Origin: an uncultured Bacilli bacterium
Lineage (GTDB): Bacteria > Bacillota_I > Bacilli_A > RF39 > UBA660
Length of the DNA stretch: 64,000 nucleotides
Assembly: GCA_944350315.1 (NCBI GenBank)
Contig: CALVON010000039.1
Location: forward strand, 48 to 64,047
Reading direction: 5' to 3'
The notes under the pieces were generated by a model. The model was given only the letters and a program-made list of their open reading frames with translations. It searched no databases and was not told the origin of the DNA. Below, in pieces: positions 9,332 to 60,623 of this stretch (position 1 is the stretch's first letter; every line of letters begins with the position of its first letter). A program made the translations under genes and the position numbers.

Positions 9332-10591
9332 ATGTTTAAAACATTTAAACTGTTATTTCACAAAAAGAATAAAGATATTAGAAAAAGAATATTATTTGTA
9401 TTAATGTGTCTATTAGTTTTTATAGTAGGAAAAACTATTCCTGTTCCAGGGACACAAGGAGCAATATCAGATTTAGATTTATGGGAATTTTATGATGCTA
9501 TTTCCGGTGGTGCACTAGAAAGATTTTCTATCTTTTCACTAGGAGTAATGCCATATATTTCTGCATCAATAATTACGGGAATATTACAAATGGATATAAT
9601 TCCATACTTTACAGAATTAAAAGAACAAGGTGCTACTGGTAGACAAAAAATAAATCAAATAAATAGATACCTTGGATTAATAATAGCATTTCTTCAAGGT
9701 TTAGCCATGGCAGTTACTTTTGTTCCTAATAGTGGAGCTATAGACTATCTAAAGATAGCCATTATGTTAACAGCAGGTACTGCATTCCTATTATGGTTAG
9801 GTGATCAAATGACTCAAAAAGGAATCGGTAACGGAATATCACTATTAATAATGGCAGGAATAATATCAAGTATACCAAATATGTTTATTGAAACATTCCA
9901 ATCATTAGTATTAGATAATAGTTCATTGTTCTTAGGAATTGTTTCATTTGCCATATTTGTAATGGTTTATATAGCTATTATTGTAGGAATTGTTTACATA
10001 GAAAAATCTGAAAGAAGAATACCTATTCAGTATGCTAATCAAACACAATCAGCATATGGTGCTAGACAAAACTACATACCATTTAAACTAAATAGTGCAT
10101 CTGTAATGCCAGTAATCTTTGCATCAGTACTGTTTACAATACCATCGTTTATTGCAGGACTAATGGATAGTGAGTCATCATTTGCACTTTTCGTATCAAA
10201 ATATATAAATTATACTACACCAATTGGCTTTACAATATATATGATAGTAATAATTTTGTTCTGTTTCTTTTATACATTCTTGCAAATAAATCCTGCTGAA
10301 TTATCTAAAAACCTTAATAAACAAGGAGGATATATTCCAGGAATAAGACCAGGAAAAGAAACACAAGATTATATTAGTACAGTAATAGGAAGAATAACCC
10401 TTATTGGGGCTCTTTCAATAGCAACAATCGCTGGATTACCAATTATATTTAGTAACTTTATTGATACGGGATTACCAAGCAGTGTATCATTAGGAGGAAC
10501 TAGTATTTTAATTGTTATTGGAGTTGCTCTAGAAACCTACAATCAAATTGAAAGTAGTCTATTAAATAGAAATTATCGAGGTGGAAAATAA
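9332..10591 (+). CDS. secY: preprotein translocase subunit SecY
   Basis: 419-aa polytopic protein in the canonical spc-operon position. GVMPYISASII motif. Confidence 0.95.
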   Translation: MFKTFKLLFHKKNKDIRKRILFVLMCLLVFIVGKTIPVPGTQGAISDLDLWEFYDAISGGALERFSIFSLGVMPYISASIITGILQMDIIPYFTELKEQGATGRQKINQINRYLGLIIAFLQGLAMAVTFVPNSGAIDYLKIAIMLTAGTAFLLWLGDQMTQKGIGNGISLLIMAGIISSIPNMFIETFQSLVLDNSSLFLGIVSFAIFVMVYIAIIVGIVYIEKSERRIPIQYANQTQSAYGARQNYIPFKLNSASVMPVIFASVLFTIPSFIAGLMDSESSFALFVSKYINYTTPIGFTIYMIVIILFCFFYTFLQINPAELSKNLNKQGGYIPGIRPGKETQDYISTVIGRITLIGALSIATIAGLPIIFSNFIDTGLPSSVSLGGTSILIVIGVALETYNQIESSLLNRNYRGGK

Positions 10592-45520: not shown

Positions 45521-45595
45521 ATCTGTCAAATAAATAAAAAATATTGTTTGACATAAACAAATTTGCTATAATAAGTTAGAAAGTAGGTGTATGAA

Positions 45596-47563
45596 ATGAA
45601 AAAAATGTCATATTTTGTCTTATTACTATTATCATTTATTTGTTTTTCTAATCATACATTTGCTATTAGTATTATTGAAGTTAATGGTTATGATGTTAGA
45701 TTTAGAAGCTCACCAAGTACTAATAGTACTATATATAATTCTTTTAATATAGGTGAAAAATTAACATACCTTGCTACATCTTCTAGTGGTAATGGCTGTA
45801 GCGGACCATGGTATAAAGCACAATATGCTAGCACAGTAGGATATATTTGCAGTGACTATGCTATATTAAAAGAAATAGATTCTTCAGAATATGAAGACTA
45901 TCAAGAATATTTAAAAGATTTAGGTTTTCCTGATACTTATATTCCATATTTAACAACTTTACATACAATTCACCCTAATTGGCAATTTCAAATTATGAAT
46001 GTTGATATAACATTTAACAATATGGTTAATATTGAATATGATGGCCATTCCCAAGGATGGAGTCTAATTGAAGATACTGGAAGTTATTATGACGGATATA
46101 AGTCTACCGATAGTTGGGCTTACAACTATCTTACTAATGTCTTTAGAAACAATTATATTGGTGGTGGAACAAACTGGTATGCCGCTAACAAACAAGTAAT
46201 AAGTTATTATCTAGACCCAAGAAATTTCTTAAATGAAAAACAGATATTTATGTTTGAAACACAAACCTTTAATTCTGCATATCACACAAAAGATGGAGTA
46301 GAGTTAGCCTTAAAAGGAACATTTATGGAGAGTAAACTTGCCGATGAAGAAAATAATTTTACATATGCAGATGCCTTTATTGAAGCAGGAGTAGAACACG
46401 GAATAAGTCCATACTTATTAATATCAAGAGTAATTCAAGAAGTCGGAGCCCAAGGTAGTACTATCGTAAGTGGAACTGTCGCTGGATATGAAGGATATTA
46501 TAATTTTTACAATATAAATGCTTATGGAAATACAAATACGGAAACAATTACTAACGGATTAAAATATGCTAAAAGTCAAGATTGGTCAACCCCATATAAA
46601 GCAATTGTTGGTGGAGCAGAATTCTTGCAAAACGGCTATCTTGATCAAGGACAAAATACACTATACTTGCAAAAATGGGATTTATTTGGTCCAAATTATG
46701 GAAATCATCAATATATGCAAAATATTCAAGCACCATCAACTGAATCTATAAAAACATATAATGCATATAAAAATGTTAATTTAATAGATAGTAGTTTTAC
46801 CTTTGTTATTCCCGTATTTAAAGAAATGCCTGAAAAAACAACACTACCAAGTAAAGGAAACCCTAATAATTATTTATCAAGTTTATCAGTAAATGGTAGC
46901 TACTTATTCGAAAGTGCCACTCATGAAACAACATTTAATCTAAATTTAGATACTACTTCTTCATCAATTGACATTGCTGCTACTAAAGTATCCAATAAAT
47001 CAACTATAAGTGGTACAGGAAGTGTAGCATTAAAAGGAAATGAACAAACAATCTCAATTTTAGTAACTGCTGAAAATGGCGATACTAGAACATATAAAAT
47101 AAATATAACGAGGTCTACCAGCATATCTTTAGATATAAGCGAGATATTAAGAGTACTAAATATAAAAAATGATGGTACATATATTTATGGTTATGAACTT
47201 GGAACAAAGATTGAAAGTATAATGAAAAGTATCTCCGACAAAGAACCACAAGCTACCGTGACTGCCTTTAATAAAGATGGCAAAGAAAAAAGTAGTGGAA
47301 TAATTGCTTCTGGAGATATTATAAACATTAAAACTGACCGTGAAGAAAAAAATTATACAATCTTGATTTATGGTGACGTCAATGGTGATGGTAAAATTAC
47401 CGCATCTGATTACATGACAATAAAAAATCATATTATGGATATCAAAAAATTATCAGATCAAGAAAAGTTATATGCTGATGCAAACAAAGATGGTAAAGTT
47501 ACCGCATCTGACTATATGACAATAAAAAACCATATTATGGATATAAAAAAAATAACTCAATAA
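45596..47563 (+). CDS. secreted SH3b - GH73 N-acetylglucosaminidase - cadherin-like - dockerin protein
   Basis: Signal peptide, SH3b (VRFRSSPSTNSTIY...GPWYKAQ...GYICSDY), GH73 core (FIEAGVEHGISPYLLISRVIQEVG), a cadherin-like beta-sandwich (NYLSSLSVNG...TYKINITR) and two dockerin EF-hand repeats (DVNGDGKITASD, DANKDGKVTASD). Confidence 0.8.
   Translation: MKKMSYFVLLLLSFICFSNHTFAISIIEVNGYDVRFRSSPSTNSTIYNSFNIGEKLTYLATSSSGNGCSGPWYKAQYASTVGYICSDYAILKEIDSSEYEDYQEYLKDLGFPDTYIPYLTTLHTIHPNWQFQIMNVDITFNNMVNIEYDGHSQGWSLIEDTGSYYDGYKSTDSWAYNYLTNVFRNNYIGGGTNWYAANKQVISYYLDPRNFLNEKQIFMFETQTFNSAYHTKDGVELALKGTFMESKLADEENNFTYADAFIEAGVEHGISPYLLISRVIQEVGAQGSTIVSGTVAGYEGYYNFYNINAYGNTNTETITNGLKYAKSQDWSTPYKAIVGGAEFLQNGYLDQGQNTLYLQKWDLFGPNYGNHQYMQNIQAPSTESIKTYNAYKNVNLIDSSFTFVIPVFKEMPEKTTLPSKGNPNNYLSSLSVNGSYLFESATHETTFNLNLDTTSSSIDIAATKVSNKSTISGTGSVALKGNEQTISILVTAENGDTRTYKINITRSTSISLDISEILRVLNIKNDGTYIYGYELGTKIESIMKSISDKEPQATVTAFNKDGKEKSSGIIASGDIINIKTDREEKNYTILIYGDVNGDGKITASDYMTIKNHIMDIKKLSDQEKLYADANKDGKVTASDYMTIKNHIMDIKKITQ
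47390..47551 (+). repeat. two 60-nt near-identical segments encoding the dockerin repeat pair
   Basis: 47390-47449 and 47492-47551 differ at 5 of 60 nt (GKI/VTASDYMTIKNHIMDIKK). Confidence 0.85.
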
Positions 47564-47579
47564 TTAAGGAGTGAAATAA

Positions 47580-49022
47580 ATGAAATACTTAAAAAAAATT
47601 AGTAGATATTTATTATTAACAATAATTGTTTCAACTTTATATATAAATAATGTATTAGCATATGGATACGATATATCCGTAACTAGTAGTACCGTAACTG
47701 TTGGTAATAATGTAACTTTAAAAATACAAGGAAGTCAAATTGCTGGTCGTTTCAATATAACCTCATCAAATACAGGTGTTGCCAGCTTATCAACAAGTAG
47801 TGTTTGGGTCGAAAATGATACCCAATCAATAACTATAAATGCTAAAAAAGTTGGTAAAGCTACTATTACAATTACTCCTAATGATATTACTACAACAGAT
47901 ACTAACCCTAAAGATGTCAGCTTAAATGCCAAAACGATTACCATAACCGTTAAAGCAAAACCAACAAGTGGTGGCGGTAGTAGTTCAGGAGGTAATAGCC
48001 AATCAACGACTCCAACAAAATCTACTAACAGTTATTTATCAAGTATCACAGTTGATGGTTTTGAATTAAATGAAGAGTTTGATAAAGAAAGTTTAGAATA
48101 TACTTTAACTGTTCCATACGATACTGAAAAAATTAAAATTAATGCCCAATTAGAAGATTCAAATGCTAAAGTAACTGGAGTAGGTGAGGTTAACGTATCG
48201 ACCGGTTTAAATACTTTTGAAATCATCGTAACTGCCGAAAACGGTAGTAAAAGAACATATAGTCTCAAAGTAACAGTTGAAGAAGAAGATCCTATCGAAG
48301 TAAAAATAGATAACGAAACACTAACAGTCATTAGGAAAAGAAAAGATTTACCTAAGATTAGTGAATATTTTGAAGAAAAAGATATTACTATTGATAATAA
48401 AAATGTTGAAGGTTATTATAATGATACTTTAAAATACACCGTCGTAGGATTAAAAAATTCTCTTGGAGAAATAAATTACTATATATATGACTCTGGAAAA
48501 TATACCAAATATGAAGAATATACCTTTAACGGAACAACATTACAAGTATTAGATAAAGCAGTTTCTGGAGCTAAAAAAACTAGCTTCGTATATGACAGTA
48601 GCAAAATAACAAGCTATCAAGAAGTAAAATTAGATGTCTTAAAAAATACTTATGCCCTTGATAATAATGATATTGGTGGCAATCAATTTTACTTATTTTA
48701 TGCTATAAACATAGAAACAGGAAAAGAATCACTTTATCAATATGATGCTAGTGAAAAAACAGTTCAAAGATATAATACTCTAGTCTTAGATATGTATAAA
48801 GATAGAAGTGATAAATATTACTTATGTTTACTAGGAAGTTTACTTCTACTTGGAATTGTCATTCTTACTTTCAGTATAACTATGATACATAAGAAAAAAC
48901 AAAGTAAAAAGAAAATTAACTTAGTAAAAGAAAAACCATCTAAAAAAGTAATTGATGAAGAACAAGAAAAGTTTTCCTTCGATGATTTACCAATAAAAAA
49001 TAAAACCAAAAGACAAGACTAA
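47580..49022 (+). CDS. surface protein: Big_2-like, S/G linker, cadherin-like domain, unknown domain, C-terminal TM anchor
   Basis: Signal peptide, TVTVGNNVTLKI...VGKATITITP, SGGGSSSGG linker, NSYLSSITVDG...RTYSLKVTV, TM YYLCLLGSLLLLGIVILTFSITMI and a basic tail. Confidence 0.7.
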   Translation: MKYLKKISRYLLLTIIVSTLYINNVLAYGYDISVTSSTVTVGNNVTLKIQGSQIAGRFNITSSNTGVASLSTSSVWVENDTQSITINAKKVGKATITITPNDITTTDTNPKDVSLNAKTITITVKAKPTSGGGSSSGGNSQSTTPTKSTNSYLSSITVDGFELNEEFDKESLEYTLTVPYDTEKIKINAQLEDSNAKVTGVGEVNVSTGLNTFEIIVTAENGSKRTYSLKVTVEEEDPIEVKIDNETLTVIRKRKDLPKISEYFEEKDITIDNKNVEGYYNDTLKYTVVGLKNSLGEINYYIYDSGKYTKYEEYTFNGTTLQVLDKAVSGAKKTSFVYDSSKITSYQEVKLDVLKNTYALDNNDIGGNQFYLFYAINIETGKESLYQYDASEKTVQRYNTLVLDMYKDRSDKYYLCLLGSLLLLGIVILTFSITMIHKKKQSKKKINLVKEKPSKKVIDEEQEKFSFDDLPIKNKTKRQD

Positions 49023-51820: not shown

Positions 51821-52744
51821 TTATCTATACTCAGCCTTTATCATCTTTGCGTGAATAACAATTCTCTTAGTACCATCATCCGTACAAGTAGATAAAGTTA
51901 AAATTTTATCATTACTACTAACATCCTCATTAAAATTATAAATACTTCTATTTTTTATCGTTTCTACAAAAATTTCATGCTCTTCATCTGACTCAAAATA
52001 AGTCTTTAAATAATATACCTCTGGTTTAATCGTATATATAGAAAATATTTTCCAAACAGTATTTGATTTAGGAGTAGATAATTTTATATACTGATTATCT
52101 TCATTCTTATACCAAGATTCTTTTAAGCACCATACTAAAGAACCAAACATTGATCTATCAGTCATATTATGTGCATAAATTATTGTGTTACTGCCAAAAT
52201 ATTCAAAGTCAGCTCTATAATCTGCATAAACCCATCCATTAATATTACTTTTCTTATAAAAATCATGTTTCAAATAATACTCATTATCATCATGTTGAAC
52301 TATCGAATAATTAACATTAGTATTATTGACTTTTATCCAGCCAACCGTTTCATTATTTTTATCAATTAAATCCTTAAAATCAACTGACATATAACTAATA
52401 TCAGCATATTTTTCTTCACCACTAGGAATAAATTCTTCTTTTGAAATATCCTCTTGTTTCTCATTTTCTAAAATTTCTGTACTAGCCAAAATGTCATCAG
52501 CTAAATAGTTAATTTTAAGCCTTTGAACATACCATCTTGAAGCATAAAAAATACAGATAAAATATACTCCCAAAGACAAAGTTAACATTAAAATAGGAAT
52601 AACTGGCTTACCTTTATACATAAATAAAGAACTCTTTTTCGGATCAAAAATACACATAATTCCTATAATAAGATACCTTGGTATAATAGTAATGACTGTA
52701 AATAGTCCTAAAAAAAACCATTTAAATACTTTTAGTAATTTCAC
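51821..52744 (-). CDS. srtB: class B sortase
   Basis: ETVGWIKV..TNVNYSIVQ..DNEYYL.HDF, YAHNM and LTLSTC motifs. Extended N-terminal membrane region. Confidence 0.85.
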   Translation of the reverse strand: MKLLKVFKWFFLGLFTVITIIPRYLIIGIMCIFDPKKSSLFMYKGKPVIPILMLTLSLGVYFICIFYASRWYVQRLKINYLADDILASTEILENEKQEDISKEEFIPSGEEKYADISYMSVDFKDLIDKNNETVGWIKVNNTNVNYSIVQHDDNEYYLKHDFYKKSNINGWVYADYRADFEYFGSNTIIYAHNMTDRSMFGSLVWCLKESWYKNEDNQYIKLSTPKSNTVWKIFSIYTIKPEVYYLKTYFESDEEHEIFVETIKNRSIYNFNEDVSSNDKILTLSTCTDDGTKRIVIHAKMIKAEYR

Positions 52745-53411: not shown

Positions 53412-53505
53412 CTTGTTCTTTTATCTATCTAAAAACTAAAAAGTACTTGATTATAATTATTAATCTTTGATATAATAATTTAGAAGATAAGAAAGGAAGA
53501 ATTTT

Positions 53506-53955
53506 ATGGAAGAATACAAAATAACAATGCATAATGAAGAAGACACAATCGCGTTTGCACAAAATTTAGAATCAGAAAAATTTCCTAATATGGTTATTTG
53601 TTTGTATGGAGAATTAGGTAGTGGAAAAACCGTTTTTGCTAAAGCTTTTGCTCATGCAATGGGAATTGACGGAGTAACTTCTAGTACCTTTAATATAATT
53701 AAAGAATATAATGGAGAATTACCATTATATCATATGGATGTTTATCGAATTGAAAATAATGCTGACAACTTAGGAATTGAAGAATATTTTGAAAAAGGAG
53801 GAGTAACCATTATCGAATGGGCTGATCTTATTAAAGATTATCTTCCTGAAGAAAGACTAGATATTAAATTCAAAGTTATTGATGAAAATACTAGAGTATT
53901 ACTATTAAAAGCCTATGGTGATGATTACATAAGAGCTTGTGAGGATATATTATGA
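53506..53955 (+). CDS. tsaE: tRNA t6A37 biosynthesis ATPase TsaE
   Basis: LYGELGSGKT P-loop. 149 aa. Confidence 0.9.
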   Translation: MEEYKITMHNEEDTIAFAQNLESEKFPNMVICLYGELGSGKTVFAKAFAHAMGIDGVTSSTFNIIKEYNGELPLYHMDVYRIENNADNLGIEEYFEKGGVTIIEWADLIKDYLPEERLDIKFKVIDENTRVLLLKAYGDDYIRACEDIL

Positions 53956-54578
53956 TTAGTTTATTTATAGATACATCTTTATCAAGTGTATCTATTTCTG
54001 TTATTAAAGATAATGAAATTTTATCATTAATTAAAAAAGATATTCCTAATATGCATTCTATATATACAACTAGTTATTTAAAAAAAGCCTTAGATGATGC
54101 TAATATTAACCCTTTAGAAGTAGATAATATCTATATCGTTAATGGCCCAGGTTCATTTACGGGCTTAAGAATAGGAGTAACAATTGCTAAAACTTATGGA
54201 CACTTAATAGATAAAAACTTAACTCCAGTATCTACTTTAAAAGCAATTGCTATAAGTAGTGATTATAGAGGGATCATTATGAGTGTTATTAAAGCTAATA
54301 AAAGTAATTATTATGTAGGAGTATATGATAAAAATTATCAAAATGTTATTGAAGAGAAGTTTACTAATGAGTCTAATTTAATGGATTTAATAAATAAATA
54401 TCACCCATACATTGTAACAACAGAAGATATTAATATTAATAGCATACAAATAAATAAAATTAATCTCGATATTTTAAAAATAATTAATTATTATCAAGAT
54501 AAAGAAAAAGTAAATTACTATGCCTTAGTTCCTAATTATTTGAAACAACCACAAGCAGTGGAAGATAAAAAGGATTAA
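53952..54578 (+). CDS. tsaB: tRNA t6A37 biosynthesis protein TsaB
   Basis: IDTSLSSVSISV and NGPGSFTGLRIG motifs. Confidence 0.88.
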   Translation: MISLFIDTSLSSVSISVIKDNEILSLIKKDIPNMHSIYTTSYLKKALDDANINPLEVDNIYIVNGPGSFTGLRIGVTIAKTYGHLIDKNLTPVSTLKAIAISSDYRGIIMSVIKANKSNYYVGVYDKNYQNVIEEKFTNESNLMDLINKYHPYIVTTEDININSIQINKINLDILKIINYYQDKEKVNYYALVPNYLKQPQAVEDKKD

Positions 54579-54581
54579 TAA

Positions 54582-54935
54582 ATGATTGAAGAGAAAGATA
54601 TTATTTCTATAAATCCTTTCAGTAGAAAAATTATTTATATAGAAAATGATCAAGAACTAGGATTTCTTGAATATTCCCTCATATATGACCGTATAGAAAT
54701 AGATAATATTATGGTCAACGAAGAATATCGTAATCTTGGAATAGGGACTAAATTAATGGCATATTTAGTAAGTCAAGCCATCTCACTTAGAGTAATAAAC
54801 ATTACATTAGAAGTAAGAGTAAGTAACCAAACTGCTATTAATCTTTATAAAAAATTTGGCTTTAGAGAAGTTGCTTTAAGAAAATATTATTATGGAGACG
54901 AAGATGGTATATTAATGGAAAAACAGGTGATGTAA
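54582..54935 (+). CDS. rimI: GNAT acetyltransferase, RimI-like (short)
   Basis: The V..EYRN.GIG..L motif, plus its position between tsaB and tsaD. Confidence 0.75.
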   Translation: MIEEKDIISINPFSRKIIYIENDQELGFLEYSLIYDRIEIDNIMVNEEYRNLGIGTKLMAYLVSQAISLRVINITLEVRVSNQTAINLYKKFGFREVALRKYYYGDEDGILMEKQVM

Positions 54936-54936
54936 A

Positions 54937-55950
54937 ATGAAAGATATTTATTGCCTTGCAATAGAATCGTCATGTGATGAAACAAGTATGAGTATTATCA
55001 AAAATGGTACTGAAGAAATAGCTACTGTTACTAATACCCAAATAGATATTCATAAAGAATTTGGTGGAGTAGTACCTGAAGTAGCTAGTCGTAGTCATAT
55101 TGAAAATATTACTATTGTTTTATCAGAATTATTAGAAAAAAGTCATATGAAAATAGATGATATTGATATTATCGGAGTAACTTATGGCCCGGGATTAATT
55201 GGATCATTACTAATTGGTCTTCAGTGTGCTAAAACAATATCTTTAGTAACTAATAAACCCCTAATACCAGTTCATCATATTAAAGGCCATATCTATGCTA
55301 ATAACTTAGAAAAAAGGCTAACATTTCCTCTTATTGCTTTAGTAGTATCTGGAGGACATACTGAATTAGTTTATATGAAAGAAGACTATTCATTTGAAAA
55401 AATAGGTGGTACTCTAGATGATGCTATTGGAGAGGCTTATGATAAAGTAGCTAAAATATGCGGCCTTGACTATCCTGGTGGCCCAATTGTAGATAAATTA
55501 GCTAAACTAGGAAAAGATACCTATGATTTACCATATCCACTAAATGATGATAGCTATAATTTTAGTTTTAGTGGTATTAAATCAGCCGTAGTAAATTTAG
55601 TTCATAATGAAAAACAACGGGGAAATAATATAAGAATAAATGACATATGTACATCATTTCAAAATAGATGTATTGAGGTTTTAACAAAAAAAACTATGAA
55701 AGCCTTAAAAGAATATAAAGTTAATAATCTAGTATTAGCTGGCGGAGTAGCAGCCAATAGCTATTTAAGAGAAAAATTAACTAAAGAATGTCAAAAAGAA
55801 AAAATTAATTTTAGTTATCCAAGCATGAAATATTGTACTGACAATGCTGCTATGATTGGAGCGGCCGCCTATTATGCTTACAAAAAAGGAATAGTTGCCA
55901 ACCTAGAATTGAATGCCAAAGCCGTAGTCGATTTATATAATGAAAAATAA
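54937..55950 (+). CDS. tsaD: tRNA N6-adenosine threonylcarbamoyltransferase TsaD
   Basis: IESSCDETS, HH.KGH and LAGGVAAN motifs. Confidence 0.94.
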   Translation: MKDIYCLAIESSCDETSMSIIKNGTEEIATVTNTQIDIHKEFGGVVPEVASRSHIENITIVLSELLEKSHMKIDDIDIIGVTYGPGLIGSLLIGLQCAKTISLVTNKPLIPVHHIKGHIYANNLEKRLTFPLIALVVSGGHTELVYMKEDYSFEKIGGTLDDAIGEAYDKVAKICGLDYPGGPIVDKLAKLGKDTYDLPYPLNDDSYNFSFSGIKSAVVNLVHNEKQRGNNIRINDICTSFQNRCIEVLTKKTMKALKEYKVNNLVLAGGVAANSYLREKLTKECQKEKINFSYPSMKYCTDNAAMIGAAAYYAYKKGIVANLELNAKAVVDLYNEK

Positions 55951-55983
55951 TTATAAAAATTATCTAAAAAAATATACTTTAGT

Positions 55984-56340
55984 ATGAAACAAGATAAATT
56001 AAAAGAACTAAAAAGTTTAGATAATGATAATATTGTCTGGATTATATTTATAATATTATCTCTTTTAAACATAAATGCCGATAATCATCAAAAAAAATAT
56101 ATAATAACAAATAATTATAATGAAAAAGAAAAAGCAGATAATATTTTTAAATTTACTATTATTATCAGTATTATTATCTATCTATTTATATTTAATAAAA
56201 ATTATAGTTCTTATCAAAAGTCATCAAACAAAGAACTATCAATTATAAAACTATCAAGTACTATTTTCTTTATACTAGGAGGATTATGTCTTTTATACTA
56301 TGAAGAAAATAAATACAGTGAGGAAAGAAAAAATGAATGA
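55984..56340 (+). CDS. small membrane protein
   Basis: 118 aa with three hydrophobic segments. Confidence 0.4.
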   Translation: MKQDKLKELKSLDNDNIVWIIFIILSLLNINADNHQKKYIITNNYNEKEKADNIFKFTIIISIIIYLFIFNKNYSSYQKSSNKELSIIKLSSTIFFILGGLCLLYYEENKYSEERKNE

Positions 56341-56815
56341 AAATATTAAAAAAATAATTGAAATATTAACTAAAAAGAATAAAACAATATCAACAATGGA
56401 ATCATGTACAGGGGGATGTCTGGTTAACAGTATTACAAATATTGAAGGATCTAGTGAAGTCTTAAAATTTAGTGCAGTGACTTATTCTAATGAATATAAA
56501 ATAAAAATGGGAGTAAATAAAGAAATAATAGATAAATATACTGTCTATAGTATTGAAACTGCTAAAGAAATGAGTAAAAATATAAGTATGTATACTAATT
56601 CAAATTATGGTATTGGTATTACTGGTAAATTAAATAGAGTAGATAAAAATAATTTATATGGTGAAAATAATATTGTATATGTAAGCATTTATGATAAAGA
56701 TAATGATAAATATTATAATATTACTATTGAAGTAGATAAAAATACTAGAGAAAAAAATAAAGAAATGGTTATTTTAGAAGTATCAAAAATTTTACTAAAA
56801 ATAATAAATTTATAA
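56333..56815 (+). CDS. CinA C-terminal domain / nicotinamide-nucleotide amidohydrolase PncC-like
   Basis: The ATG at 56333 gives ...ISTMESCTGGCLVNSITNIEGSS..F..AVTYSNE.K. Confidence 0.75.
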   Translation: MNENIKKIIEILTKKNKTISTMESCTGGCLVNSITNIEGSSEVLKFSAVTYSNEYKIKMGVNKEIIDKYTVYSIETAKEMSKNISMYTNSNYGIGITGKLNRVDKNNLYGENNIVYVSIYDKDNDKYYNITIEVDKNTREKNKEMVILEVSKILLKIINL

Positions 56816-56901
56816 ATATAAATTTAGATAAAGAAGTATTGTAAAAGATACTTTTTTTTGTTATAATCAAATAGAAGATAAATAACCTAGGAGCTGATAT
56901 T

Positions 56902-59900
56902 ATGAAAAAAGAAAATAATAATCAAAAGGAAATAAATAAAGAAAATAAAATTAATAAATTAGGTAAAAAAAGTATCATAATAACTATATTTAGTATATTA
57001 TTAGTAACTATTATTGGAACAGCTGCTTGGCTTACATGGAGAAGTAATGATACGGCTTTAGTACTTACTATTGGTGATTTAAATACAGCTCAGGTTATAT
57101 TAAAACCATATAAAATAAATACCGAAATATTACCAGTAAATAGTTATGAAAATGAACTATATACTGATGTAGAAGCAATAAATAGCAGTTCTACATCTAA
57201 AAAAATAAAACTATTTTATAGAATTACTAATATTGATGAAGAACTAATAACTGAAGATTTTAAATATACTATAACAAGAAGTACTGATAATGGATCAACC
57301 TATGAAGAATATCAATCAGGAAATTTTTCAACCGCTCAAAATAATCAAGATTTCTATATCTTAAAAGAAAATATTCCCGGTAATACGACATATAAATATA
57401 AAGTATATATATGGTTAGATGGAAGTAATGGTAATCAAACAGAAGTACAAGGTAAAAAATTTGAAGGAGAACTTAGAGCAGAAATATTAAATGGAAGTGA
57501 TGTAGTAGTAGATTTACCAGATGGATTAATTCCAATAACTTATGATGTATCAGGAAATAATACCATTGTTAAAACTATAGATAGTACTAATAGTAGTTGG
57601 TATGACTATGATGAACAACTATGGGCTAATGGTGTATTAGTAACCGAGTCATCAAGAAATACATATTTAAACACATCTGGAGTAACTATTCCAGAATCAG
57701 ATATTTTAGCATATTATGTCTACATACCAAGATATAAATATAAAATATGGACAACTGAAGAAAGCAGTACAGGAGAAGAACAAGAAATAGAAATAATCTT
57801 TGAAAATACATCCATGACAAAATCACAAGGAACTCAAGTCGGAGAATATATTACTCATCCAGCCTTTACTTTTGGAAGTAATGAAGTAAATGGTATCTGG
57901 GTAGGAAAGTTTGAAACAACTGGAACTGAAGAAACTCCTACGGTAAAACCAGATGTGACATCGCTAAGAAATCAAAATGTATCAACTCAATTTCAAACAG
58001 CCTTAAAATTTGCTGGTGGAACAATGGCTGATGACGGAAGTGTGACATTTTCTGGTTCATCAACATATGGACTAGATAGCAACATTGACAGTCACATGAT
58101 GAAAAATAGTGAATGGGGGGCAGTAGCTTACTTATCACATTCTAAATATGGATTAAATAGTGAAGTATATATTAATAATTCATCTGGATGTTATACTGGA
58201 AGAAGTGGTGGAAATGTTGGTGGAAGTACCCCAATAAATGGAACATATCCTGATCAAACATCAATAGTTGAAAAAAACACATATGGCTTTTATACTTGGG
58301 ATGGCTACTTATTAAATTATAATACCAATACCAAATCATCAACAAGAGATTTAACAAAAGTAGCAAGTACCACAGGAAATATTACTGGAGTATATGACAT
58401 GTCTGGAGGAGCATATGAATATGTAATGGGAAATTATAATAATACTATTTCCTCAAGTGGGTTTACGGTAATGCCAAGCAGTAAATATTATGATTTATAT
58501 ACTTCAACAAATAGATTAACTTCGTGTAATGGAGGAGTATGCTTTGGACATGGAATTTCAGAAACTAGCTTTTGGTATGAAGATTCAGCAACTTTTTTTG
58601 TTTCATTATATTCATGGTTAGCAAGAAGTTCTGCTTACGATAAAGGAGTTATTTCTGGTACATTTCATTACAGTGCAACACAAGGCACACAACAAACATG
58701 GCAAGGATTCCGTTCCGTATTAGTAAAAGCTCCATATAGTGATCCAATATTAAATGGCTCAGATCCAGTACTTGATGAAGGAATAATCCCAATAACATTT
58801 GATGTATCAGGCGATAATACCATAATAAAAACTGCAGGCTTATATGATGAATGGTATAACTATTCTAATCAAGAATGGGCAAATGCAATATTAGTAACTG
58901 AAGAGTCAAGAGATACATATCTAGGAACATCTGGAGTAGAAGTAAATCAATCAGATATCTTAGCATATCTAGTATGGATACCAAGATATAAATATAAGAT
59001 ATGGACGCTATCTGAAAGTAGTACAGGTCAAGAACAAGAAATAGAAATCGTATTTGAATCAAAAGATGAAATATCAACAGGCACTCAAGTAGGAGAATAT
59101 ATAACTCATCCAGCATTCTGGTGGGATGATGATAGTGATGGGGTAAGAGAAGAAGAAGAAGAATTATCAGGCATTTGGGTAGGAAAGTTTGAAACAACAG
59201 GAGATGCCACAACGCCGACGGTATTACCGGATGTTACTTCGCTAAGAAGTCAATCTGTATCAACTCAATTTAAAACAGCCTTAAAATTTGCCGGTGGAAC
59301 AATGGCGGACGATGGAAGTGTAACCTTTACTGGTTCATCAACTTATGGGTTAACAGCTAATACCGACAGTCATACGATGAAAAATAGTGAATGGGGCGCG
59401 GTTGCTTATTTATCACATTCAAAATATGGCGTAAATAGAGAGGTATATATAAATAATAGTAGTGGTTATTATACTGGAAGAAGTGGTGGAAATGTAGGTG
59501 GTAGTACTCCGATAAATGGAATATATTCTGATCAATCATCAACAACACAATATAACACATATGGTTTTTATACCTGGGATGGATACTTATTAAATTATAA
59601 TACCAATACCAAATCATCAACAAGAGATTTAACCAAAGTAGCCAGTACAACAGGAAATATTATGGGAGTATATGATATGTCTGGAGGTGCGACTGAATAT
59701 GTAATGGGAAATTTAAATAAAAAAAGCATGGGAGATAATTTTAACCCATTTCCTAGTCAAAAATATTATGATTTATATACGACAATAAGCAGTTTAACTG
59801 CCTGTAATGGTGGAGTATGTTTTGGGCATGCTTTGTCAGAGGTAAGTTTGTGGCATAGTGATGGTGGTGAAATTGATGATGGTAATGGTCCGTGGTTTCT

Positions 59901-60015
59901 TCGTGGTGGCTACTACAGCCATGGGAGGTATGCGGGTGTCTTCGACTTCCGCAACGGCAGTGGTCTTGCGAGCACCTTCAACGCCGCCCGTCTGGTTCTC
60001 GGTATAGGAGCGTAG
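56902..60015 (+). CDS. 1037-aa membrane-anchored surface protein with two tandem FGE-sulfatase/C-type-lectin-like modules
   Basis: N-terminal TM (IIITIFSILLVTIIGTAAW), a domain of about 150 aa, then two modules each carrying HPAF...GIWVGKFETTG, NSEWGAVAYLSHSKYG and GVYDMSGGA.EYVMGN (compare G.YDMSGNVWEW of FGE-like domains). Confidence 0.75.
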   Translation: MKKENNNQKEINKENKINKLGKKSIIITIFSILLVTIIGTAAWLTWRSNDTALVLTIGDLNTAQVILKPYKINTEILPVNSYENELYTDVEAINSSSTSKKIKLFYRITNIDEELITEDFKYTITRSTDNGSTYEEYQSGNFSTAQNNQDFYILKENIPGNTTYKYKVYIWLDGSNGNQTEVQGKKFEGELRAEILNGSDVVVDLPDGLIPITYDVSGNNTIVKTIDSTNSSWYDYDEQLWANGVLVTESSRNTYLNTSGVTIPESDILAYYVYIPRYKYKIWTTEESSTGEEQEIEIIFENTSMTKSQGTQVGEYITHPAFTFGSNEVNGIWVGKFETTGTEETPTVKPDVTSLRNQNVSTQFQTALKFAGGTMADDGSVTFSGSSTYGLDSNIDSHMMKNSEWGAVAYLSHSKYGLNSEVYINNSSGCYTGRSGGNVGGSTPINGTYPDQTSIVEKNTYGFYTWDGYLLNYNTNTKSSTRDLTKVASTTGNITGVYDMSGGAYEYVMGNYNNTISSSGFTVMPSSKYYDLYTSTNRLTSCNGGVCFGHGISETSFWYEDSATFFVSLYSWLARSSAYDKGVISGTFHYSATQGTQQTWQGFRSVLVKAPYSDPILNGSDPVLDEGIIPITFDVSGDNTIIKTAGLYDEWYNYSNQEWANAILVTEESRDTYLGTSGVEVNQSDILAYLVWIPRYKYKIWTLSESSTGQEQEIEIVFESKDEISTGTQVGEYITHPAFWWDDDSDGVREEEEELSGIWVGKFETTGDATTPTVLPDVTSLRSQSVSTQFKTALKFAGGTMADDGSVTFTGSSTYGLTANTDSHTMKNSEWGAVAYLSHSKYGVNREVYINNSSGYYTGRSGGNVGGSTPINGIYSDQSSTTQYNTYGFYTWDGYLLNYNTNTKSSTRDLTKVASTTGNIMGVYDMSGGATEYVMGNLNKKSMGDNFNPFPSQKYYDLYTTISSLTACNGGVCFGHALSEVSLWHSDGGEIDDGNGPWFLRGGYYSHGRYAGVFDFRNGSGLASTFNAARLVLGIGA
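57487..60012 (+). repeat. intragenic tandem duplication, two units of about 1263 nt (421 codons)
   Basis: Units start at LNGSD (57487 and 58750). Long stretches are identical or near-identical (e.g. GTAGGAAAGTTTGAAACAAC, ACAGCCTTAAAATTTGC, ATGAAAAATAGTGAATGGGG). Confidence 0.9.
59888..60012 (+). other. GC-rich, adenine-depleted 3' segment, a candidate DGR variable region
   Basis: 59893-60000 has 14 A and 64 G+C in 108 nt. The paralogous 108 nt of module 1 (58615-58722) has 35 A and 43 G+C. Confidence 0.5.
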
Positions 60016-60091
60016 CGACATGCTCTTTTGAAACGGAGGTTATGACAATAGGAAAAGATAAATAGGTAGCAGAAAAATACGAAATGGAGTT

Positions 60092-60127
60092 GTGCCCTGT
60101 TTGCCTCTTTTTTTGCAAACCGGGCAC
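60092..60127 (+). other. strong GC-rich hairpin downstream of the candidate VR
   Basis: GTGCCCTGTTTGC-(ctcttttttt)-GCAAACCGGGCAC: a 13-bp stem with one mismatch. No trailing T-run on either strand. Confidence 0.7.
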
Positions 60128-60188
60128 GGGGTAAGCTGTTGATAAATGAATATAAGTAGTTAAATAATAAAATATAGGTAGGTAAGAT

Positions 60189-60623
60189 ATGGAAAGAGAA
60201 ATGATTAATAAAAGTAGTAAGAATAATAAAAAGGGTTTTACTTTAGTAGAGTTAATTGCTACTATTGTTGTCTTGGCTTTAGTCGTAGGTATATCTAGTT
60301 ATGCTGTTATTGGTTTAATACAAAGTTCTAAAGAAAAGAATTATGAATTATTAATTACCAGTATTAAAGATGCCGCAGAAACTTATTATCAAGAATGCAC
60401 CTATTCTAATAATACAGGTATTACCTGTGGTAATACAGTAACACTTAATGATTTACTTACTTATGGTTATTTAAAAGGAAATGATTCTGATCATGATAAT
60501 AGTATTATTAATCCTAAAGATAATGAAAATATAGGTGCCTGTCAAATATCTATTTCTTATTTATCTGGTAAAGTAGAAGTTAGTGCCGTTAATCCTACTG
60601 GTAGCTGTCCTACTGAATATTAA
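60189..60623 (+). CDS. prepilin-type N-terminal cleavage/methylation domain protein (pseudopilin)
   Basis: KKG/FTLVELIATIVVLALVV is a class III signal. Two Cys pairs in the globular part. The start could instead be the ATG at 60201. Confidence 0.85.
   Translation: MEREMINKSSKNNKKGFTLVELIATIVVLALVVGISSYAVIGLIQSSKEKNYELLITSIKDAAETYYQECTYSNNTGITCGNTVTLNDLLTYGYLKGNDSDHDNSIINPKDNENIGACQISISYLSGKVEVSAVNPTGSCPTEY

What the first reader, a model, noticed from the sequence alone, without database searches (positions are those of the whole stretch)
59888..60131. Adenine-depleted, GC-rich 3' tail plus hairpin: candidate DGR variable region on a lectin-fold surface protein, with no RT or TR in the window
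**Seen in the sequence.**
- Near 59886-59893 the composition switches abruptly inside an intact reading frame.
- 59893-60000 contains only 14 A and 64 G+C in 108 nt. The paralogous, gap-free-alignable 108 nt at the end of module 1 (58615-58722) contains 35 A and 43 G+C, like the rest of this AT-rich window.
- The segment encodes the last ~40 residues, WFLRGGYYSHGRYAGVFDFRNGSGLASTFNAARLVLGIGA.
- Its odd codons (tac tac agc cat ggg agg tat, gac, cgc, agt, ctt, acc) are what AAC/AAT-type codons become when adenines are substituted.
- A GC-only run (cgccgcccg, 59982-59990) sits near the 3' end.
- A 13-bp imperfect inverted repeat (60092-60127) lies about 75 nt past the stop and has no terminator T-run.

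**Established knowledge.** DGR targets commonly use FGE/C-type-lectin folds with the variable region (VR) at the extreme C-terminus. Mutagenesis is adenine-specific. An IMH (initiation of mutagenic homing) element, which is GC-rich, and a hairpin lie at or after the VR end. Remote targets without an adjacent RT are known.

**Inference.** This tail was written by retrohoming from a GC-rich template repeat located elsewhere in the genome.
Basis: partly seen in the sequence, partly recalled or inferred. Interest (0 to 1): 0.82.

Follow-up and report, generated by a model that had tools for sequence, protein, structure and literature searches.

The report
Orphaned DGR variable region, donor missing
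The odd GC-rich, adenine-poor end of this surface-protein gene is a genuine variable region of a diversity-generating retroelement, a known kind of targeted mutator, but the template and reverse transcriptase that sit next to it in related bacteria are missing here, so it is probably a leftover.

Summary
59887-59994 is the most GC-rich (66/108) and most A-poor (14/108) stretch of the window, and no codon of 59890-60003 ends in A (0/38, against 454/996 in the rest of the gene). The tail is the 3' end of a 1037-aa, two-module protein with a weak FGE-sulfatase match.

Relatives of this protein are proven DGR targets. In L272, L185 and L131 a homologue is followed by a template repeat (TR), a MutS-like gene, bAvd and an intact reverse transcriptase. 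Their VR/TR mismatches fall almost only on TR adenines.

The closest relative with DNA (L188) has the same 3' flank followed by a TR. Against that TR the window differs at 16/28 adenine positions and 9/86 others.

The window contig (64,124 nt) has no TR, Avd or RT. Homology to relatives ends about 27 nt after the hairpin.

Several results suggest a relic. Tails are fixed within species, several neighbouring DGRs are decayed, and paralogous tails cannot share one TR. An active DGR elsewhere in the genome could not be excluded.

The flagged hairpin is real and shows compensatory changes. It belongs to a roughly 120-nt element specific to this DGR subfamily and does not match the canonical DGR hairpin.

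Verdict: a new member of a known kind, of moderate interest.

The parts
56902..60015 (+). Target gene: 1037-aa protein with an N-terminal membrane anchor and two tandem modules of about 420 aa. The variable region is at the end of module 2.
   Evidence: ORF list. Pfam FGE-sulfatase 34.8 bits, above the 23.3 cut-off. 62 of 79 relatives match the same family. At least 8000 homologues were found.
59890..60004 (+). Variable region (VR), as far as it is homologous to the template repeat of relative L188. It is 60% G+C, has 15 A in 115 nt, and no codon ends in A.
   Evidence: Against the L188 TR it differs at 16/28 TR-adenine positions and 9/86 others. Third-codon A is 0/38.
59982..60004 (+). GC-rich 3' end of the VR (CGCCGCCCGTCTGGTTCTCGGTA), the IMH-like part. 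VR/TR homology in L188 ends at the base matching 60004.
   Evidence: The alignment with the L188 TR ...GCCGCCCGTTTGGTTTTCGGCA|GAC diverges after this point.
60007..60019 (+). Conserved motif GGAGCGTAGCGAC overlapping the stop codon (GGAGCGTAAGCGAC in other clades). It occupies the position where intact relatives have a short hairpin.
   Evidence: Nearly invariant in 16 loci and unique in the window. L272 and L185 have stable hairpins here (-6.4 and -5.9 kcal/mol), but the window does not (-0.5).
60016..60135 (+). Conserved non-coding 3' element specific to this DGR subfamily. In complete cassettes it lies between the VR and the TR.
   Evidence: It is 96.6% identical to L188 and L189, while the coding sequence is 83-85% identical. 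A profile search of 1.55 Mb finds it almost only just after VR stop codons; the exceptions are L218, where it precedes a TR at a contig end, and one weak minus-strand hit. It lies between VR and TR in L272, L227, L188, L201 and L218. No Rfam match.
60092..60127 (+). Distal hairpin: 13-bp arms (60092-60104 and 60115-60127) and a 10-nt loop CTCTTTTTTT.
   Evidence: RNAalifold predicts 13 pairs, 6 of them with compensatory double changes across 16 loci. DNA fold -12.1 kcal/mol, z = -4.2. Not a terminator-like site.
60150..60158 (.). Approximate break of homology with relatives. Where L188, L272 and L227 continue into TR, MutS-like gene, bAvd and RT, the window continues into a pilin-like gene (60189-60623).
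   Evidence: The L270-window alignment ends at 60154. The three-way alignment diverges after GGGGTAAG. N_methyl domain in the downstream gene.
58615..58722 (+). Paralogous end of module 1. It is AT-rich, not a VR, and serves as an internal control.
   Evidence: 35 A and 43 G+C in 108 nt. Tandem-module repeats D1, D2 and D4.

Best explanation
59890-60004 is the variable region of a diversity-generating retroelement target gene.

How it was made: in this DGR subfamily the full cassette is target gene with VR, a ~120-nt 3' element with a hairpin, the TR, a spacer, a MutS-like gene (MSL), bAvd and the RT. The RT copies TR RNA into cDNA, misincorporating at template adenines, and the cDNA replaces the VR. 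Non-variable TR positions avoid adenine. The copy is therefore A-poor and, in a 27% GC genome, conspicuously GC-rich.

Shown: the tail is homologous to verified VRs and to a relative's TR. Variation among alleles is specific to TR-adenine positions. The donor half of the cassette is absent from this contig, and homology to relatives ends just after the hairpin.

Inferred: the donor was lost from this locus, leaving an orphan VR that is most likely no longer rewritten. I put about 0.9 on a DGR origin of the tail. The 0.55 given here is for the stronger claim that it is now a relic and not a serviced remote target.
For: DGR origin:
- L272 is an intact cassette: target tail, element, TR, MSL, bAvd and a 341-aa RT. 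Its VR/TR mismatches are 18/36 at TR-A positions and 1/103 elsewhere, p = 8e-12.
- L185 and L131 are complete DGRs whose targets are homologues.
- L188, the closest relative with DNA, has the same 3' element followed by a TR.
- Window VR against that TR: 16/28 mismatches at TR-A positions and 9/86 elsewhere.
- VR alleles of the window, L188 and L189 differ pairwise at 50-68% of TR-A positions and 10-14% of the others.
- Third-codon A is 0/38.

Relic reading:
- The 64-kb contig has no TR, Avd or RT.
- In one related species, about 20 variants that are 97-99% identical vary in the N-terminal half but hardly at all in the tail.
- Of 80 metagenomic loci, only 2 have an adjacent RT, and both are broken (L227 truncated; L237 has the VR fused to the TR spacer).
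- L201 and L218 carry a decayed or IS-interrupted donor half.
- The closest RT relatives are often truncated.
- In L188 the gene's own VR and TR differ at 9/86 non-A positions.
- Paralogous tails (L123; window against L270) differ at non-A positions, so they cannot share one TR.
- The window's VR lacks the 23-nt 5' part that matches the TR in L188 and L189, and by eye in L270.
- The same VR appears in three assemblies.
Against: - The rest of the genome could not be searched, so a TR and RT on another contig remain possible.
- The three identical assemblies are essentially one strain (2 differences in 10.7 kb), so they say little about population variation.
- No reads were available.
- The tail is still 60% GC in a 27% GC genome.
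- The 3' element is more conserved than the coding sequence (96.6% against 83-85%). A dead cis-element should decay, so either it is still used for homing in trans or it has another function.
- The non-A mismatches to the L188 TR may only reflect divergence between the TRs of different lineages.
Confidence: 0.55

Rival explanations
1. Active remote target. A DGR (TR, MSL, bAvd, RT) elsewhere in the same genome still rewrites this VR in trans. It would recognise the GC-rich VR end plus the conserved 3' element and hairpin.
For: - Remote and non-adjacent DGR targets are documented, and avd-TR-brt works in trans (PMC5758913).
- The 3' element is kept at about 20 loci without a TR or RT, and is 96.6% identical across lineages whose coding sequence is 83-85% identical.
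- The tail composition has not decayed.
- Active-looking members of the subfamily exist (L272).
Against: - No TR or RT was found in the window, in IMG/VR, or in the metagenome collection when scanned with VR-scaffold patterns.
- RT hit lists share no contig length with target-bearing contigs.
- No RT lies within 10 kb of the targets on contigs of 275 kb and 1.3 Mb.
- Tails are fixed within species.
- Paralogous tails differ at non-adenine positions.
- The window VR lacks the 5' part of the TR homology.
Confidence: 0.3
2. Cassette exchange without reverse transcription. The tail and its conserved 3' flank move between alleles or paralogues by homologous recombination or gene conversion. The conserved flank acts as a recombination anchor, and that exchange explains the different tails.
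For: - L270 is 100% identical to the window for 5.6 kb, then carries a different distal part of module 2 (from about 59,100), a different tail and a different downstream region.
- The 3' flank is nearly identical between lineages.
- One hairpin loop is inverted in L123.
Against: - Recombination shuffles tails but does not create adenine-position-specific differences (50-68% against 10-14%).
- It does not explain the absence of third-position A.
- No silent tail copies lie in the window.
- L270 may be an assembly chimera of two paralogous loci.
Confidence: 0.08
3. The tail has no special origin. Its composition comes from selection for a Gly/Ala/Arg/Tyr-rich peptide, from foreign DNA acquired from a GC-rich organism, or from an assembly join.
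For: The tail is rich in G, A and R codons. The switch at about 59890 is abrupt and coincides with a window-specific stretch (GGEIDDGNG) upstream.
Against: - Synonymous positions are biased as well (0/38 third-position A).
- The same scaffold occurs in dozens of 24-35% GC genomes.
- It matches TRs of relatives.
- Separately named assembly records reproduce the junction.
Confidence: 0.03

Closest known systems
Chromosomal DGRs with non-adjacent or remote targets, such as the Treponema denticola TvpA system (as summarised in PMC5758913)
   Same: The VR is at the C-terminus of a surface protein with an FGE-sulfatase/C-type-lectin-like domain. Variation is adenine-specific. Several related target genes are scattered through a genome, and some targets have no adjacent RT.
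   Different: No cognate TR or RT has been found here for the lone targets. Their tails differ at non-adenine positions, and several donor cassettes are visibly decayed. Many of these look like abandoned targets, not serviced ones.
DGRs with the MutS-like (MSL) accessory gene plus Avd (Wu et al. 2018, PMC5758913; that paper places one MSL gene in the Legionella DGR)
   Same: L272, L271, L227, L185 and L131 carry MSL, bAvd and RT (Pfam MutS_I, bAvd, RVT_1).
   Different: The gene order in the GC-rich subfamily is VR, 3' element, TR, MSL, Avd, RT. A conserved ~120-nt element separates the VR from the TR. The window itself has none of these genes.
Bordetella phage BPP-1 target site: IMH plus hairpin/cruciform (Guo et al. 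2011, PMC3240598)
   Same: The VR has a GC-rich 3' end shared with the TR. An inverted repeat downstream of the VR keeps its structure but not its stem sequence.
   Different: The canonical hairpin has a 7-10 bp GC-rich stem and a 4-nt GRNA loop, 4-34 bp after the VR. This one has a 13-bp stem and a 10-nt T-rich loop, 76 nt after the stop codon and 87 nt after the end of TR homology. The motif at the canonical position (60007-60019) folds only weakly in the window.
L272 (ENA ERZ27280417 k141_891847), the intact DGR of the same subfamily found here
   Same: It has the same target family, the same kind of GC-rich tail (...AARSVLVVGS), the same 3' element and the same distal hairpin (13 perfect pairs, loop CTCTTTTTTT).
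   Different: L272 continues into TR, MSL, bAvd and a 341-aa RT, with a clean adenine-only mismatch pattern. The window continues into an unrelated pilin-like gene.

Membership tests
DGR variable region / target gene | The VR lies at the 3' end of an ORF, and homologous proteins are verified DGR targets. | tested here: met
   The tail ends the 1037-aa ORF. Homologues are the targets of complete cassettes L272, L185 and L131.
DGR variable region / target gene | A cognate TR exists in the same genome and differs from the VR only at TR adenines. | not testable with these tools
   The contig is 64,124 nt and holds no TR. The one genome-collection scan was wasted on poly-A matches. Scaffold patterns found nothing in IMG/VR or the metagenome collection. 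As a surrogate, the TR of relative L188 gives 16/28 mismatches at TR-A positions and 9/86 at other positions.
DGR variable region / target gene | A DGR-type reverse transcriptase, usually with Avd, is present. | tested here: not met
   The window has no RT-motif ORF and no similarity to the RT, Avd or MSL of L131.
DGR variable region / target gene | Differences among VR alleles are confined to positions that are adenine in the TR. | tested here: met
   Pairwise differences among the window, L188 and L189 are 50-68% at 28 TR-A positions and 10-14% at 86 other positions. The non-A level is close to that of the coding sequence, so the confinement is strong but not absolute.
DGR variable region / target gene | Adenine is avoided at positions that must not vary. 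| tested here: met
   Third-codon A is 0/38 in the VR against 454/996 in the rest of the gene, p = 2e-10.
DGR variable region / target gene | The VR is hypervariable within a population or between close strains. | tested here: inconclusive
   The VR is identical in three assemblies, but they are one strain. In a related species the tail is nearly invariant across about 20 variants. No reads were available.
DGR target-site hairpin (Guo et al. 2011) | A GC-rich 7-10 bp stem with a 4-nt GRNA loop lies 4-34 bp after the VR. | tested here: not met
   The flagged hairpin has a 13-bp stem and a 10-nt loop, 76 nt after the stop codon (criteria from PMC3240598). The motif at the canonical position folds at only -0.5 kcal/mol in the window. 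The equivalents in L272 and L185 fold at -6.4 and -5.9.
FGE-sulfatase / C-type-lectin-fold variable protein | The C-terminal domain adopts the CLec/FGE fold, with the VR on its surface. | tested here: inconclusive
   Pfam FGE-sulfatase scores 34.8 bits for the whole protein (cut-off 23.3) but 20.2 bits for module 2 alone. 62 of 79 relatives match. There was no PDB sequence match. Two AlphaFold runs gave pLDDT 36 and 42, so no fold search was made.
Intrinsic transcription terminator | A GC-rich hairpin is followed directly by a T-run. | tested here: not met
   The scan finds no terminator-like site at 60092-60127 on either strand. The hairpin is followed by GGGGTAAG.
Known structured RNA (Rfam 15) | The sequence matches a curated covariance model. 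| tested here: not met
   59800-60250 gave no match at E <= 1.

The most novel reading that the evidence does not exclude
The ~120-nt element after the stop codon (conserved motif at 60007-60019 plus the 13-bp hairpin with a 10-nt T-rich loop) is a portable, so far undescribed cis-signal of one DGR lineage in low-GC gut Bacilli. It would mark a gene end as a homing site. That would let one RT and TR service scattered targets in trans, and would explain why the element is kept almost unchanged at about 20 loci that have no donor of their own.
Probability: 0.2. Interest if true: 0.55.

Novelty: new member of a known kind. Interest (0 to 1): 0.35.

Why it matters
DGRs are the only known prokaryotic system of targeted protein hypermutation, and searches for them normally start from the RT.

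This case shows that a VR can be recognised from raw sequence alone in an AT-rich genome, by adenine depletion and the absence of third-position A. It also shows that one large target family in gut Bacilli (at least 8000 hits) includes many loci that keep the VR and its 3' element but have no adjacent donor. RT-centred surveys miss such orphan targets. They record past DGR activity and its loss.

The conserved 3' element is a concrete candidate for a non-canonical target-recognition signal and can be tested in a homing assay.

For the window itself the result is ordinary: a known mechanism, probably inactive here.

Tried and rejected
- **Wasted genome scan.** I built a DGR-logic pattern from the VR (C to M, G to R, T to W). 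In the window it found only the VR. That was a design error on my part.
- **Scaffold patterns with plain bases and N at variable codon positions.** They gave 0 hits in IMG/VR and 0 in the metagenome collection.
- **blastn of the tail against GenBank phages.** No match.
- **Protein search in IMG/VR with the family alignment.** No relatives.
- **Look-ups of P0006 and P0011.** Not on record.
- **Linking RTs to target-bearing contigs by identical contig length.** No coincidence in two RT searches. Only the best 120 hits of each search were visible.
- **Fold confirmation.** AlphaFold2 with 41 and with 79 sequences gave pLDDT 36 and 42, so no fold search was run. The PDB profile search found nothing, and NCBIfam found nothing.
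- **Other identities for the flank.** No Rfam match and no terminator-like site.
- **Organism name.** Cluster look-ups returned no names. One RT homologue is labelled 'Bacilli bacterium'.
- **Rejected: horizontal acquisition from a GC-rich donor, and a chimeric assembly join.** The feature is family-wide, is biased at synonymous sites, and is reproduced in separately named assembly records.
Full report
**1. The observation**

- 59893-60000 has 14 A and 64 G+C.
- The paralogous end of module 1 (58615-58722) has 35 A and 43 G+C.
- Over all 108-nt windows the means are 45.7 A (sd 6.8) and 28.9 G+C (sd 7.1).
- The extremes of the whole 64 kb lie here: 14 A and 66 G+C. The runner-up has 54 G+C.

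The stretch is the 3' end of an intact ORF, 56902-60015 (+), encoding 1037 aa. The protein has an N-terminal membrane anchor and two tandem modules of about 420 aa (repeat families D1, D2, D4, D8, D9 and D16). It matches Pfam FGE-sulfatase weakly, at 34.8 bits against a cut-off of 23.3.

The inverted repeat is at 60092-60104 and 60115-60127, with the loop CTCTTTTTTT. It starts 76 nt after the stop codon and is not followed by a T-run.

A sharper measure of the anomaly is codon usage. None of the 38 codons of 59890-60003 ends in A, against 454 of 996 in the rest of the gene (p = 2e-10). Amino-acid content therefore cannot explain the bias.

**2. What the tail is**

A search with module 2 scored 8000 candidates, and nearly all were significant hits. 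Their C-termini share a fixed scaffold, PWFxRGGxYxxGSxAGxFxFxxxxGxAxxxx(GFR/AAR)..., interrupted by positions filled with N, Y, S, D, H, G and the like. That is the pattern expected from AAY codons mutated at their adenines.

In relatives from 24-35% GC genomes the tail is again 50-66% GC.

Three complete DGR cassettes were recovered in which a homologue is the target.
- **L131** is an IMG/VR contig that also carries a serine recombinase. Its order is target, MutS_I-like gene, TR, bAvd, RT.
- **L185** is chromosomal, from a Hadza gut sample, beside type IV pilus genes. It has the same order.
- **L272** belongs to the same GC-rich subfamily as the window. Its order is target tail, 3' element with hairpin, TR, spacer, MSL, bAvd and a 341-aa RT. 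Its VR and TR differ at 18 of 36 TR-adenine positions and 1 of 103 others (p = 8e-12).

The closest relative for which DNA could be read is L188 (protein P0004, 79% identical). It has a 3' flank almost identical to the window's. About 70 nt after the hairpin it has a TR, and the contig ends soon after.

Using that heterologous TR gives these results.
- The window tail differs at 16 of 28 TR-adenine positions and 9 of 86 others.
- The tails of the window, L188 and L189 differ pairwise at 50-68% of TR-adenine positions and at 10-14% of the others.
- The odd codons mostly fit an AAY origin (AAC to TAC, AGC, GAC, CGC, GGC, TTC; AAT to CTT, CAT, TAT).
- Some do not. GGG and AGT are unchanged from the TR, and AGG and ACC differ from it at non-adenine positions.

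Homology to the TR runs from 59890 (CCGTGG...) to 60004. In L188 and L189 it begins 23 nt further upstream. The window has an unrelated stretch there (GGEIDDGNG), which explains why the composition switch at about 59890 is so abrupt.

**3. What is missing**

The window has no TR within three mismatches of the DGR-logic pattern. It has no RT-motif ORF and no similarity to the RT, Avd or MSL of L131. The window is essentially the whole contig of 64,124 nt.

Homology to L188, L189 and L270 stops at about 60154, some 27 nt after the hairpin. That is where complete cassettes continue towards the TR. The window continues into a promoter-like site and a pilin-like gene.

**4. Active remote target or relic?**

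I could not reach the rest of the genome. My one scan of the genome collection was wasted on a pattern that matched poly-A runs. Better patterns found nothing in IMG/VR or in the metagenome collection, which evidently do not hold this lineage.

Indirect evidence leans towards a relic.
- In one related species, about 20 variants that are 97-99% identical differ in the N-terminal half but almost never in the tail. Other species show the same fixity.
- Of 80 metagenomic loci with a homologue, only two have an adjacent RT, and both are broken. L227 has a truncated RT. In L237 the VR is fused directly to the TR spacer, and the MSL gene and RT are disrupted.
- L201 keeps a decayed TR with no RT in the roughly 1 kb before the contig ends, and L218 has an IS30-like insertion after the TR.
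- The nearest relatives of that RT are often truncated.
- No RT lies within 10 kb of targets on contigs of 275 kb and 1.3 Mb.
- L188's own VR and TR differ at 9 of 86 non-adenine positions. This suggests no recent rewriting from that TR, because the intact cassette L272 shows 1 of 103.
- Tails of paralogues in one genome (L123), and of the window against L270, differ at many non-adenine positions, so one TR cannot serve both.

Other points argue against a relic.
- The tail composition is undecayed.
- The 3' element is 96.6% identical across lineages whose coding sequence is 83-85% identical.
- The three assemblies with an identical tail are a single strain.
- Remote targets are well documented (PMC5758913).

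My estimates are about 0.9 that the tail was written by a DGR, about 0.55 that it is now an orphan relic, and about 0.3 that it is still serviced in trans.

**5. The hairpin and the 3' element**

The hairpin is real. RNAalifold on 16 loci predicts 13 pairs, of which 6 show compensatory double changes. Examples are GTGCCCGG/CCGGGCAC, GGTTCATT/AATGAACC and GGGCCCAT/ATGGGCCC. The loop and the inner stem are conserved.

The hairpin is part of an element of about 120 nt that begins with the near-invariant motif GGAGCG(T)A(A)GCGAC, overlapping the stop codon. A profile of the element finds it in 1.55 Mb of fetched DNA almost only just after VR stop codons. The exceptions are L218, where it precedes a TR at a contig end, and one weak minus-strand hit.

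In L272, L227, L188, L201 and L218 the element lies between the VR and the TR. At about 20 other loci it is present without a TR.

It has no Rfam match and is not terminator-like. It does not meet the published description of the DGR target hairpin, which has a 7-10 bp GC-rich stem and a 4-nt GRNA loop, 4-34 bp after the VR (PMC3240598).

A better candidate for that role is a short hairpin right at the stop codon.
- In L272 it is GTGATGC-GAA-GCATCAC, at -6.4 kcal/mol.
- In L185 it is AACACC-GTAA-GGTGTT, at -5.9 kcal/mol.
- In the window the equivalent motif folds at only -0.5 kcal/mol.

The function of the element remains unexplained.

**6. Comparison, novelty and verdict**

This is a DGR target of the FGE-sulfatase/CLec-like class, from a lineage that uses MSL and bAvd accessories. 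Both features are already described (PMC5758913). The finding is therefore a new member of a known kind.

The fold could not be confirmed structurally, because both AlphaFold runs failed.

Two things are mildly new. First, many members of this very large family in gut Bacilli appear to be orphaned targets. Second, a subfamily-specific 3' element survives at those loci. I score the finding at moderate interest.

Noticed in passing
L270 (ENA ERZ28614869 scaffold_4481) against window 53446-60154: L270 is 100% identical to the window for 5.6 kb up to about 59,100. It is then 12-30% divergent through the rest of module 2 and the VR, and it loses all homology at about 60,154. Its downstream genes match L189 (two ORFs, YqfQ, T2SSF, prepilin peptidase). 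It is either a recombinant strain or an assembly chimera of two paralogous target loci. Its tail equals that of P0006.
   Followed up: partly
L122 11810-12024; also L123, L192-L197, L203, L242: In this clade the 3' element is bracketed by a direct repeat. GGAGCGTAAGCGAC lies at the stop codon, and GGAGCGAAGCGAC (without the T) lies just after the distal hairpin, followed by ACGTATAG, which resembles the start of the TR spacer. It may be a remnant of a deleted TR end or a second copy of the recognition motif.
   Followed up: no
L123 11822-12036: The loop of the distal hairpin is reverse-complemented (TTTTTGC AAAAAGAGGG ACAAAAA instead of TTTTTGC CTCTCTTTTT GCAAAAA), as if the loop had flipped between the inverted arms.
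   Followed up: no
L237 1480-3563; L227 2361-3444; L218 1-2231: These loci show different ways a DGR decays. In L237 the VR is joined directly to the TR spacer, which suggests a VR-TR deletion, and the MSL gene and RT are broken. L227 has a clean adenine-only VR/TR pattern but an RT truncated at 215 aa. L218 has an IS30-like transposase inserted after the TR and an MSL fragment.
   Followed up: partly
window 57883-58182 and 59161-59460: A 300-nt stretch is 81% identical between the two modules of the target gene, including the identical peptide KFAGGTMADDGSVTF. L270 differs there, which suggests gene conversion between the modules.
   Followed up: no
window 60189-60623; L001 10458-10781; L185 704-2837; L189 and L270 downstream genes: Target genes of this family repeatedly lie next to type IV pilus or pseudopilus genes: N_methyl pilin-like proteins, the T2SSF platform protein and the A24 prepilin peptidase. 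This may hint at the proteins' role or export route.
   Followed up: no
L188 2590-2650, L185 about 9560-9600, L227 1845-1875, L272 715-760: A conserved motif GTTTAAGGAC lies in the spacer after the TR, and TATAGGGAYWAAAC lies just before the TR. Both occur across otherwise divergent cassettes and may be parts of the DGR RNA.
   Followed up: no
window 45587-49022 and 51821-52744: Surface proteins here carry dockerin, cadherin-like and SH3 domains (the dockerin repeat pair lies at 47369-47554). A sortase gene lies upstream of the target gene.
   Followed up: no
L208-L215 and L204-L206: Some family members keep the tail peptide motif (for example FRRGGYYNSSASGIFYFYYHSGTNVTSFSFRTCLS), but their tails are 31-38% GC and lack the 3' element. 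They may be older tails that have drifted to the genome's composition.
   Followed up: no
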